From: Nanobdellota archaeon | Lineage (GTDB): Archaea > Nanobdellota > Nanobdellia > SCGC-AAA011-G17 > JACPNG01 | Assembly (NCBI GenBank): GCA_038046345.1 | Contig: JBBSWJ010000035.1 | Span: 1-32,604 of the forward strand | Length of the DNA: 32,604 bases | Direction: 5' to 3' | Shown here: one piece after another, positions 12,051 through 13,988 of the stretch | Layout: each line of letters begins with the position of its first letter | Position numbering within the stretch: the stretch's first letter is position 1 | The notes under the pieces: generated by a model | Told to the model about the DNA's origin: nothing | Databases searched by the model: none | What the model saw: the letters and a program-made list of their open reading frames with translations, nothing else | Position numbers and translations under genes: made by a program

Positions 12051-13988
12051 TTATTGCATTGGTGTACCACTAAACCTATCCCGGTCACCACCCCCAGCCG
12101 CGCCGCCGCCTAGCTCTCTTGGCAGATTAGTCCATCCAGCCCCATAAACATCTCTAAAATGCACATCAGGAAGCATATTCCCAAAACCAAGTGAATACCC
12201 CCCAGCTCTCATGCCTACCTCATTCCATGTAGGCCCCTGGACCCCGCTGTATAAAGGACTTTCAAAATGCATTATAGTGTCAACATGCGGGTTCTCCTTA
12301 AACTGAGCAACATGGGAACCTGCTTCTATTATAGTATTCCCTTTCTCAAATTTAAATCCTGCTTTTTTTAAAAGCTTAAACTGCTCTTCAATTGGAGAAT
12401 CACCAAAACCTGGAGGCATATGTGCGTCATGAAATCCAAAATTATCTGTAATATGCAATTGAGTGACAAATGGAGCAATCTTTTCAGTTTCTTTAAGAAC
12501 ATCATCATCAGAAAAGCCATGAGCCTTAAGAAAATTAATATGCCCAACATCCCAGTTTACTGACACCATTTTATTAGCCATTTCTTGAGCTTTTTCTTTT
12601 GATAGTTTGGCTTCATCCATAAGCCTCTTCTGAATTTCTTCACGGGATTTAACAATAACACGTTTCAGGTCTTCTGAATTACCTAAAGTAAAATGTGGCT
12701 GATAGTTTTCAATAGCTATAACCGGAGCATTTTCCTTGAATTTTTTATATGCATTCATAGCAACATTAGCAACTGTTTTGATAGTATTCTTTTCTGCAAT
12801 ATTGTTGGCAGGAGTAAAAATCTCTGGTAATGGAATACCTGCACCAGAAGCATCACGTTTTCCAACCCTGCCCAGTTCAGTTTGTAAAAATTTATATCTT
12901 TCCTGTTGAATATTATTAATCCTTGATGCAATCTCCTGCTTTTCATTTGATGATTTAGTATTCTTATACTTGGCATGCATCTTTTCAAGTTCATTGCCTT
13001 GAATCTGAACCTGTTTACGTAAACCATCTCTAAACTCTAACAGCTTCTTAGCCTCATCCTTATTAGCTGAAGTATACTGCAATTTATTAAATATTTCATT
13101 AAGACCAGCACCAATATGTTCATCAAGTTGATGTTGAAATGCATTAAGATGGTTAAAATTATTAATAGTACGCTTATATTCCTCCTGTAATTTTGGAGAT
13201 AAATCTTTAGGATTAGTGTTACCAAAACCAGCAAGCATAGCCTGAGCATCTCTAATTCTGCTGTTTAATTCATGTTGTTCCTTGTCTAACTGAAAAATAT
13301 TTAATTCACTCTGATCCCAAGCATTTTTATTTCTTAACCTTAACTCATGTTCAGGATCCAAAAAAATTTTACCCTCGGGCCACTCTCTTTCTTCTAAGCG
13401 TACTAATCCTATTTTACCAGTTGGTTGTTCAACAATCCCCATAGCTTTAAGAATTGCCGGCGTAGGAAACATATTTTTATTAACAAGCTTAAACTTGTCA
13501 GGATAATTTTTCTCCCAGTCTTTTAGTTCAGCAGGCGTTACAGCTTCCCATTGTTCTCCCGGTACACCTGTATTAATATGCATGTTTACAACAGTATTGC
13601 CTTTAGGATTTAATAAGTGAGCACGATTCATAGTTTCATTTAAGAATTTTTCTTCCTCATATCTTTGTTCTTCATGGAATCCTTGTTCAGTAAAACCGGC
13701 CATATCTAATAATGGCCCATGCATACTTATGTTAGCATTACTTAATTTAGCAAGTCTATGAATCTCAGTAAAATGTTGTTTAGGAATTTCTTGAAGTGTT
13801 TTCTTCTGAATTGGTTGAATATCAACACCAGAAATACCTGCATTTAATCTTGCATTAACTTCTCCTAACTGATTTGCAGTTTGAATGCTGGTAGTAGCTG
13901 CAGTTGCACTTTGTGGAACATAAAACTCATTATCCACAAAATAATGCGGATCATTAGCAGTGCGATATTCTCCGATGTATGAACCCAT
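12051..13988 (-). CDS. AP endonuclease 2 / sugar-phosphate isomerase-family TIM-barrel metalloprotein with a large helical insertion
   Basis: SMHGP, MHIN, IENY, WDVGH, LHITDN, DAH and IIEAG motifs; 645 aa. Confidence 0.8.
   Translation of the reverse strand: MGSYIGEYRTANDPHYFVDNEFYVPQSATAATTSIQTANQLGEVNARLNAGISGVDIQPIQKKTLQEIPKQHFTEIHRLAKLSNANISMHGPLLDMAGFTEQGFHEEQRYEEEKFLNETMNRAHLLNPKGNTVVNMHINTGVPGEQWEAVTPAELKDWEKNYPDKFKLVNKNMFPTPAILKAMGIVEQPTGKIGLVRLEEREWPEGKIFLDPEHELRLRNKNAWDQSELNIFQLDKEQHELNSRIRDAQAMLAGFGNTNPKDLSPKLQEEYKRTINNFNHLNAFQHQLDEHIGAGLNEIFNKLQYTSANKDEAKKLLEFRDGLRKQVQIQGNELEKMHAKYKNTKSSNEKQEIASRINNIQQERYKFLQTELGRVGKRDASGAGIPLPEIFTPANNIAEKNTIKTVANVAMNAYKKFKENAPVIAIENYQPHFTLGNSEDLKRVIVKSREEIQKRLMDEAKLSKEKAQEMANKMVSVNWDVGHINFLKAHGFSDDDVLKETEKIAPFVTQLHITDNFGFHDAHMPPGFGDSPIEEQFKLLKKAGFKFEKGNTIIEAGSHVAQFKENPHVDTIMHFESPLYSGVQGPTWNEVGMRAGGYSLGFGNMLPDVHFRDVYGAGWTNLPRELGGGAAGGGDRDRFSGTPMQ

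What the first reader, a model, noticed from the sequence alone, without database searches (positions are those of the whole stretch)
12051..13988. Endonuclease-IV-like barrel keeping all nine trinuclear-metal ligands around a ~250-aa insertion
By my manual count H90, H137, E427, D480, H483, H512, D521, H523 and E555 map in order onto the E. coli Nfo Zn ligands (H69, H109, E145, D179, H182, H216, D229, H231, E261). The H-to-E spacing is 290 aa versus 36 in Nfo, implying a ~250-aa, largely coiled-coil-like insertion (about residues 145-395). There is also a Gly/aromatic C-terminal tail. Xth already supplies AP endonuclease activity here, so this may be a new phosphoesterase or nuclease with a long arm for substrate or partner capture.
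Basis: partly seen in the sequence, partly recalled or inferred. Interest (0 to 1): 0.72.

Follow-up and report, generated by a model that had tools for sequence, protein, structure and literature searches.

The report
Endonuclease-IV-like metalloenzyme with inserted domain
This gene encodes a real enzyme, kept by almost all tiny symbiotic Nanoarchaeota/Woesearchaeota archaea, that has the three-metal active site of the DNA-repair enzyme endonuclease IV split by a large extra folded domain; it always travels with an unknown partner protein, and its substrate is still unknown.

Summary
Seven are at least 98% conserved in 223 family representatives. The other two always remain a carboxylate/imidazole pair. 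An AlphaFold model (pLDDT 84) shows a xylose-isomerase-like TIM barrel. A folded ~255-aa domain (small beta-sheet plus four long helices) is inserted in the beta4-alpha4 loop, on the catalytic face, and the Gly/aromatic tail is disordered.

The protein is single-copy in 121 of 151 genomes of its phylum. It sits in a conserved operon: a universal ~490-aa coiled-coil protein of no known family, a variable charged ORF (absent here), this enzyme, then a nucleotidyltransferase.

It is not the lineage's endonuclease IV. Relatives also carry a short, typical Nfo-like gene, with no complementarity (odds ratio 1.0). Its closest solved relative by sequence is MJ1311 (3WQO), whose function is unknown.

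Best reading: a multi-metal hydrolase, probably a phosphoesterase, working with its partner on an unidentified macromolecular or membrane-linked substrate. A sugar-isomerase role is not excluded.

This scan found the same module earlier on other genomes (e1-1398776, e1-4539226, e1-4590843).

The parts
12051..13988 (-). Whole ORF, 645 aa plus stop (P0001): 'long' xylose-isomerase-like TIM-barrel metalloenzyme
   Evidence: (PF01261, E 3.8e-10)
13569..13928 (-). N-terminal half of the barrel (aa 21-140, beta1-beta4), with the conserved TANQ loop (37-40), E75, and ligands H90 (end of beta3) and H137 (end of beta4)
12804..13568 (-). Inserted domain (aa ~141-395) in the beta4-alpha4 loop: beta subdomain 145-210 and four long helices 212-372. 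N220 and W224 are 97% conserved. No Pfam family covers it.
12264..12803 (-). C-terminal half of the barrel (aa 396-575) with ligands E427, D480, H483, H512, D521, H523 and E555, and motifs TWDVGH and HxTDNFGxxDxHxPPGxG
12054..12263 (-). Gly/aromatic C-terminal tail (aa 576-645), low pLDDT, with the conserved motif LPxELGG...R..GTP
   Evidence: not recovered in the most divergent class-level members
14070..15602 (-). Upstream partner gene, 510 aa, no known family. The model shows long coiled-coil hairpins plus alpha/beta parts.
11209..12048 (-). Downstream nucleotidyltransferase (NTP_transf_2, MNT-like, with a helical C-terminal half). Its ATG lies 2 nt after the enzyme's stop codon.
13989..14069 (-). 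81-nt AT-rich spacer with TATA-like words (TTATAAAT, TTATAATATATAT) ahead of the enzyme's ATG. In most relatives a ~200-aa charged ORF lies here instead.
   Evidence: promoter function is inferred only

Best explanation
P0001 is the Nanoarchaeota-wide 'long' member of the xylose-isomerase-like TIM-barrel superfamily. It keeps the complete ligand set of the Nfo/MJ1311 three-metal centre. A folded 255-aa domain (beta-sheet plus four-helix bundle) is inserted in the beta4-alpha4 loop, directly after the second histidine ligand, so it sits over the catalytic face. It most likely works as a multi-metal hydrolase of phosphoesters: a metal-activated water attacks a phosphate held between the metals, as in endonuclease IV. 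It probably acts together with the product of the co-located upstream gene (a coiled-coil protein of no known family) and possibly with the translationally coupled nucleotidyltransferase. The substrate is probably polymeric or membrane-linked, and the protein is not the cell's ordinary AP endonuclease. Shown here: the fold, ligand conservation, the insert, the distribution, the operon, and independence from the short Nfo-like gene. Inferred only: metal content, hydrolytic chemistry, physical complex formation and substrate class.
For: Fold: AlphaFold pLDDT 84, pTM 0.81. VIA-align Z 20-22 to the superfamily, including Nfo 1QTW at Z 20.7, rmsd 3.4 over 258 residues. Ligands: eight of nine align with Nfo's by profile alignment. 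In 223 representatives H90, H137, E427, D480 and E555 are 223/223, H483 is 220 and H512 is 222; positions 521/523 are always D/H or H/acid. Seven class-level divergent members (672-748 aa) keep them as well. The two histidines at beta3 and beta4 (the Zn1 site of Nfo) are missing from the E. coli sugar-epimerase paralogues tested; only Nfo matched at all the aligned ligand positions. Every ligand sits at or just after the C-terminal end of a barrel strand in the model. Core status: 571 or more 50%-identity clusters at E<1e-30; present in 121/151 genomes and 102/119 genera, mostly as one gene. The own genome is 821 kb and 97% complete, and this is its only PF01261 gene. Operon: the partner occurs in 150/151 genomes. 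It lies upstream on the same strand within 4 kb in 87/97 genomes where both genes share a contig, and in 57/62 GTDB loci; the NTase lies downstream in 54/59 loci. Not Nfo: short Nfo-like ORFs co-occur in 81/121 genomes, odds ratio 1.0.
Against: No activity or metal content is known for any member. By sequence the family profile scores higher against epimerase-type paralogues (FrlC prob 81%, YcjR 59%) than against Nfo (0.3%). The top fold hits are ketose 3-epimerases (Z 21.8), tied with Nfo within about 1 Z. The closest solved relative, MJ1311, has the same ligands but no assigned function (the nine-ligand statement for MJ1311 is partly from memory). The protein and its insert are acidic (median pI about 6), which gives no support for nucleic-acid binding. 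The D/H to H/acid swap arose only a few times on the tree and cannot be tested statistically. Convergence of the ligands in 3D was not measured.
Confidence: 0.45

Rival explanations
1. It is the lineage's endonuclease IV: an AP endonuclease / 3'-repair diesterase whose inserted domain clamps DNA.
For: It has all nine Nfo ligand positions. The own genome has no canonical or short Nfo-like gene. DNA-repair genes lie within 10 kb: PolX, Xth and UDG.
Against: It co-occurs with a short Nfo-like gene in 81 of 121 relatives, with no complementarity. It has no TIGR00587 match. The Nfo Tyr72 position is Leu/Ile/Val, and the family has HAPxxDxAGF where the short DPANN proteins keep HxxYYINL. The protein is acidic. 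Its overall sequence is nearer the epimerase-like branch.
Confidence: 0.15
2. It is a small-molecule sugar or sugar-phosphate isomerase/epimerase/dehydratase, as public annotations say, and the insert serves oligomerisation.
For: The best fold and sequence matches are ketose 3-epimerases, IolI, FrlC and YcjR. The E-D-H-E tetrad of that group is present (E427, D480, H512, E555). Sources name relatives 'sugar phosphate isomerase/epimerase'.
Against: Five additional invariant ligand-type residues are not needed by epimerases, including the beta3/beta4 histidines absent from the epimerase paralogues tested. The gene is near-universal and single-copy in 0.5-2 Mb genomes. It sits in a fixed operon with a coiled-coil protein and an NTase, not with sugar-metabolism genes.
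Confidence: 0.2
3. It is a membrane- or lipid-directed phosphodiesterase (phospholipase-C-like chemistry) tied to lipoprotein or host-lipid handling, and the partner protein brings it to the membrane.
For: lspA lies divergently just upstream of the partner gene in 26 of 49 loci, and in L001, L003 and this window. The partner model has a small alpha/beta part resembling KA1 domains (Z 8-9). Trinuclear zinc sites also occur in phospholipase C (established knowledge).
Against: None of the three proteins has a transmembrane or signal segment. The KA1 resemblance is within the noise range for this aligner, and KA1-like domains also bind RNA. The lspA adjacency holds in only about half of the loci at my sensitivity.
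Confidence: 0.12

Closest known systems
MJ1311 of Methanocaldococcus jannaschii (PDB 3WQO, 'D-tagatose 3-epimerase-like protein', function unknown)
   Same: It is the best solved relative by sequence (profile E 4.8e-8) and has VIA Z 21.2. The printed alignment shows shared motifs: HAPF (beta3 His), FDIGH, HVHAHDNNGYDDEH, GEGNI and ISIE, which cover seven of the nine ligand positions. From memory of the 3WQO paper (Uechi et al. 2014, not readable here), all nine Nfo ligands are kept and no DNA groove is present.
   Different: MJ1311 is about 290 aa with no insert, no Gly/aromatic tail and no known coiled-coil partner operon. Only the C-terminal third aligns significantly.
Endonuclease IV (E. 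coli Nfo, PDB 1QTW; AP endonuclease family 2)
   Same: Same TIM-barrel fold (Z 20.7, rmsd 3.4, 258 aligned residues). All nine trinuclear-metal ligand positions occur in the same order and on the same strands.
   Different: There is no TIGR00587 match. A 255-aa domain is inserted after the H109 equivalent. The DNA-inserting Tyr72 motif is absent. The family co-occurs with genuine short Nfo-like genes.
Ketose 3-epimerases and related COG1082-type enzymes (D-psicose/D-tagatose 3-epimerase, FrlC, YcjR, IolI)
   Same: These are the top fold matches (Z 21.5-21.8) and the highest profile scores among E. coli paralogues. They share the E-D-H-E metal/catalytic tetrad and the DxxH and GxGxI motifs.
   Different: The epimerases tested lack the beta3 and/or beta4 histidines. 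They are about 260-300 aa, without the insert, and act in sugar pathways that are not evident around this gene.
Short archaeal-type Nfo-like proteins of the same phylum (e.g. L017:1357-2169, L019:1369-2184)
   Same: Same superfamily and a mostly Nfo-like ligand pattern, found in the same genomes.
   Different: They are 255-350 aa, keep HxxYYINL with the Tyr72 equivalent, and are about 25% identical to E. coli Nfo. They are a separate paralogue that is absent from this window's genome.

Membership tests
Pfam PF01261 (AP_endonuc_2 / xylose isomerase-like TIM barrel) | Score above the curated gathering cut-off | tested here: met
   40.3 bits against a cut-off of 31.1, E 3.8e-10, but only aa 400-545 match; 36 of 37 aligned members match
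Pfam PF01261 (AP_endonuc_2 / xylose isomerase-like TIM barrel) | Eight-stranded TIM-barrel fold of this superfamily | tested here: met
   AlphaFold model with pLDDT 84; VIA Z 20-22 over about 250 residues to many members
Endonuclease IV (Nfo, TIGR00587) | Nine ligands of the trinuclear metal centre (H69, H109, E145, D179, H182, H216, D229, H231, E261) | tested here: met
   Met at sequence level: eight align by hhalign, and E555 sits at the end of beta8. Conservation is 98-100% for seven, and the other two are D/H or H/acid. The 3D geometry was not measured.
Endonuclease IV (Nfo, TIGR00587) | Match to the curated Nfo model above its cut-off | tested here: not met
   No TIGR00587 match at E<=0.001 anywhere in the genome
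Endonuclease IV (Nfo, TIGR00587) | HxxY[LIVMF][IM]N motif with the DNA-inserting Tyr72 (motif recalled from PROSITE; the Tyr72 column was tested) | tested here: not met
   Tyr72 aligns with L93; the family consensus is HAPxxDxAGF. The short DPANN Nfo-like proteins do keep it.
Endonuclease IV (Nfo, TIGR00587) | AP-site incision / 3'-diesterase activity on DNA | not testable with these tools
   Needs an enzyme assay
MJ1311-like proteins (PDB 3WQO) | Significant sequence similarity and shared active-site motifs | tested here: met
   Profile E 4.8e-8; motifs DxGH, HxHDNxGxxDxH and GxGxI align
MJ1311-like proteins (PDB 3WQO) | Compact single-domain barrel of about 290 aa | tested here: not met
   645 aa with a 255-aa inserted domain and a 70-aa tail. 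No close insert-free relatives were found among shorter proteins.
Ketose 3-epimerase family | E-D-H-E metal/catalytic tetrad on beta5-beta8 | tested here: met
   E427, D480, H512 and E555 are invariant
Ketose 3-epimerase family | Epimerase activity on ketoses, with a mononuclear Mn/Co site | not testable with these tools
   Needs assay and metal analysis. The extra invariant His/Asp ligands argue for more than one metal.

The most novel reading that the evidence does not exclude
The enzyme and its universal coiled-coil partner, perhaps with the charged middle protein and the nucleotidyltransferase, form a previously undescribed housekeeping machine specific to Nanoarchaeota-type DPANN archaea. 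In it a scaffolded three-metal phosphoesterase processes a macromolecule these symbionts depend on, such as scavenged host lipid or lipoprotein precursors, or nucleic-acid ends. The conserved flexible tail may be controlled through nucleotidylation by the coupled NTase.
Probability: 0.25. Interest if true: 0.8.

Novelty: new variant of a known kind. Interest (0 to 1): 0.6.

Why it matters
Nanoarchaeota, Woesearchaeota and Pacearchaeota have genomes of 0.5-2 Mb, and most of their lineage-specific core genes have no known function (Castelle et al. 2021, PMC8204110, note a module of 51 such families). This enzyme-partner pair is among the most widely kept of these genes: the partner occurs in 150/151 genomes and the enzyme in 121/151. 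The enzyme has a readable active site, so it offers a tractable way into unknown core biology of DPANN symbionts. It also shows that the endonuclease-IV-type nine-ligand metal centre exists in a large family that is not endonuclease IV. That cautions against annotating such proteins as 'AP endonuclease' or 'sugar isomerase'.

Tried and rejected
- **Fold discrimination.** Foldseek and VIA-align could not separate Nfo from sugar epimerases; Z values were tied within about 1.
- **hhalign settings.** Global hhalign with the insert in place failed. Local alignment worked only after the insert was removed, and its statistical score against single sequences is weak.
- **Family libraries.** Pfam, NCBIfam, PADLOC and PHROGs gave nothing for the insert, the partner or the 262-aa downstream ORF. 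This is not a known defence system or a phage element.
- **Partner fold.** An AlphaFold model (pLDDT 79) gave only coiled-coil and weak KA1-like or START-like resemblances: Z up to 9.7 and Foldseek E>0.03, within the noise range.
- **ESM Atlas.** It returned only the same family, plus one cluster whose members with known taxonomy are mostly Aenigmatarchaeota.
- **Insert-free relatives.** A search of shorter proteins found only two probable fragments.
- **Replacement of the short Nfo.** Rejected: odds ratio 1.0.
- **Filling in for a missing exosome or CCA-adding enzyme.** Rejected: both are present.
- **Ligand swap as covariation evidence.** There are too few independent events.
- **Literature.** Searches found no paper on this family, and the MJ1311 paper is not held.
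- **Missing middle ORF.** A search for the missing charged middle ORF elsewhere in the window found nothing.

Full report
**The observation**

The ORF at 12051-13988 (minus strand) is real and encodes 645 aa. The window comes from an 821-kb, 97%-complete DPANN genome with about 33% G+C. Its relatives are labelled Woesearchaeota, Pacearchaeota or Nanoarchaeota.

Pfam recognises only the C-terminal half of the barrel (aa 400-545; PF01261, E 3.8e-10, above the cut-off). This is what one expects if the barrel is split by foreign sequence.

**Fold and ligand mapping**

An AlphaFold model built on 37 homologues is confident (mean pLDDT 84, pTM 0.81). It shows eight barrel strands:

| Strand | Residues |
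|---|---|
| beta1 | 29-32 |
| beta2 | 54-57 |
| beta3 | 86-90 |
| beta4 | 133-137 |
| beta5 | 423-427 |
| beta6 | 475-480 |
| beta7 | 508-512 |
| beta8 | 552-554 |

- VIA-align gives Z 20-22 to many xylose-isomerase-like barrels. Ketose 3-epimerases score 21.8, MJ1311 21.2 and E. coli Nfo 20.7 (rmsd 3.4 over 258 residues). These values are tied, so fold alone does not separate nuclease from isomerase.
- I fetched E. coli nfo (L005:6841-7698) and confirmed that its nine published ligands are at the expected positions.
- I aligned the family profile, with the insert removed, to Nfo. The pairs are H90/H69, H137/H109, E427/E145, D480/D179, H483/H182, H512/H216, D521/D229 and H523/H231.
- E555 sits one residue after beta8, where Nfo has E261, but hhalign misplaced that strand.
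- Each ligand lies at or just after the C-terminal end of a strand, or in the beta7 loop. That is the geometry required for a TIM-barrel metal site.
- I could not read the model coordinates, so convergence in 3D is inferred and not measured.

**How specific the ligand pattern is**

Ligand positions in 223 family representatives:

| Position | Count |
|---|---|
| H90, H137, E427, D480, E555 | 223/223 each |
| H483 | 220/223 |
| H512 | 222/223 |
| 521/523 | D/H in 150, H/E or H/D in 61 |

- At positions 521/523 a carboxylate and an imidazole are nearly always kept. The swap arose only a few times on the tree, so it is suggestive but not statistical evidence.
- Seven very divergent class-level members (672-748 aa) keep the same residues.
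- Among eight E. coli PF01261 paralogues aligned in the same way, only Nfo matched at all the aligned ligand positions. Sugar-epimerase paralogues lack the beta3 and/or beta4 histidines, which form the Zn1 site of Nfo.
- The same test also showed that the family profile scores higher against FrlC and YcjR than against Nfo.
- The closest solved relative by sequence is MJ1311 (3WQO; E 4.8e-8). Its printed alignment shows seven of the nine ligand positions.
- From my memory of the 3WQO paper, which I could not retrieve, MJ1311 keeps all nine Nfo ligands, lacks a DNA groove and has no assigned function.
- So the barrel belongs to an MJ1311-like, epimerase-related branch that carries an Nfo-type metal site.

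**The insert and the tail**

- The insert (about aa 141-395) leaves the barrel right after H137 and returns before helix 394-420. It therefore lies in the beta4-alpha4 loop, on the catalytic face.
- It is modelled with pLDDT above 90 as a small beta-sheet (145-210) and four long helices (212-253, 265-304, 310-343, 347-372). It is a folded domain and not a simple coiled coil.
- Its sequence is poorly conserved, apart from G191, N220 and W224 (97% for the last two). It is mildly acidic and matches no Pfam family.
- The last 70 residues are rich in Gly and aromatic residues and are modelled with low confidence. They carry a strongly conserved LPxELGG...R..GTP motif. That motif was not recovered in the most divergent members.

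**Distribution**

- A profile search of 1.8 billion representatives found 571 clusters at E<1e-30. The 150 listed are nearly all full length.
- In 151 genomes sampled across the phylum, 121 (102 of 119 genera) have the gene, mostly as one copy in open frames of about 560-790 aa.
- It is the only PF01261 gene in this genome.
- A search among shorter proteins found no close insert-free relatives.
- The ESM Atlas suggests a related cluster whose members with known taxonomy are mostly Aenigmatarchaeota.

**Context**

- The upstream 510-aa gene (14070-15602) belongs to a family with no Pfam, NCBIfam, PADLOC or PHROG match. It is present in 150 of 151 genomes.
- That gene lies upstream on the same strand within 4 kb of the enzyme in 87 of 97 genomes where both are on one contig, and in 57 of 62 GTDB loci with enough flank.
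- An NTP_transf_2 nucleotidyltransferase follows downstream in 54 of 59 loci. Here its ATG is 2 nt after the enzyme's stop.
- Most relatives have a fast-evolving, charged ORF of about 200 aa between the partner and the enzyme. Here only an 81-nt AT-rich spacer with TATA-like words is present.
- The partner's model (pLDDT 79) has long coiled-coil hairpins and alpha/beta parts. Its fold matches are weak and uninformative.
- None of the three proteins has a hydrophobic segment.
- lspA lies divergently upstream of the partner in 26 of 49 loci.

**It is not the lineage's endonuclease IV**

- A search of the same 151 genomes with the Nfo model found separate short ORFs (255-350 aa) in 101 genomes.
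- Two of these that I read keep HxxYYINL with the Tyr72 equivalent and are about 25% identical to E. coli Nfo.
- They co-occur with the long protein in 81 of 121 genomes, with an odds ratio of 1.0. The long protein does not replace them.
- This genome lacks the short form but has an Xth-type nuclease next to UDG.

**Mechanism and rivals**

| Reading | Confidence |
|---|---|
| Multi-metal hydrolase, probably a phosphoesterase, with the inserted domain shaping or gating the active site, acting with its partner on an unidentified polymeric or membrane-linked substrate | 0.45 |
| Small-molecule isomerase/epimerase | 0.2 |
| True DNA-repair endonuclease IV | 0.15 |
| Lipid-directed phosphodiesterase linked to lipoprotein handling | 0.12 |

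- The genome has an exosome and a CCA-adding enzyme, so the enzyme is not an obvious stand-in for either.

**Novelty**

- I found no paper on this family.
- Castelle et al. 2021 (PMC8204110) mention a module of 51 Pace-/Woesearchaeota families, mostly of unknown function. This pair plausibly belongs to it, but I could not check that in the supplements.
- The same module was reported earlier in this scan on other genomes, with concordant conclusions (e1-1398776, e1-4539226, e1-4590843).
- I class it as a new variant of a known kind: a known superfamily and metal centre, with a new domain architecture, partner and role.

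Noticed in passing
window 17146-17559 (+) and 31301-32083 (-): Bacterial-type lipoprotein genes lspA (per the earlier scan note) and lgt (PF01790) occur in an archaeon. lspA lies divergently upstream of the partner gene here and in 26 of 49 related loci.
   Followed up: partly
window 13989-14069, compared with L020-L099: Most relatives carry a fast-evolving, charged, probably disordered ~200-aa ORF between the partner gene and the enzyme. It has a conserved N-terminal helix of the type L.KLK...EK..FL.KL. 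This window has only an 81-nt spacer, and no homologue was found elsewhere in the window.
   Followed up: partly
G000, whole genome: There are 17 NTP_transf_2 (MNT-like) matches in an 821-kb genome. This is a large expansion of small nucleotidyltransferases, and the operon's NTase is one of them.
   Followed up: no
L017:1357-2169 (-), L019:1369-2184 (+) and about 100 other genomes of the phylum: Short archaeal-type Nfo-like proteins score far below the TIGR00587 cut-off (40-73 bits against 129.65) yet keep most Nfo ligands and the Tyr72 motif. They have E..NH where Nfo has D229-x-H231. They are absent from this window's genome.
   Followed up: partly
window 8029-10323 (+): A 764-aa PEP synthase / pyruvate phosphate dikinase-like protein has all three domains.
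   Followed up: no
window 4833-6530 (+), 21074-21817 (+), 21807-22403 (-), 22694-23335 (-): Four genes lie within 10 kb of the operon: PolX with a PHP domain, an Xth-type nuclease overlapping a family UDG, and a LAGLIDADG-domain protein. This DNA-repair neighbourhood may be coincidental in so small a genome.
   Followed up: no
window 15675-17149 (+): Three tandem ~160-aa ORFs with no Pfam match lie between the partner gene and lspA. Homologues of the first and third occur in only about 6 of 80 related loci.
   Followed up: partly
window 23684-27151 (-): An operon encodes a UDP-glucose dehydrogenase, a processive GT2 (chitin/hyaluronan-synthase-like) and a DUF2334 protein.
   Followed up: no
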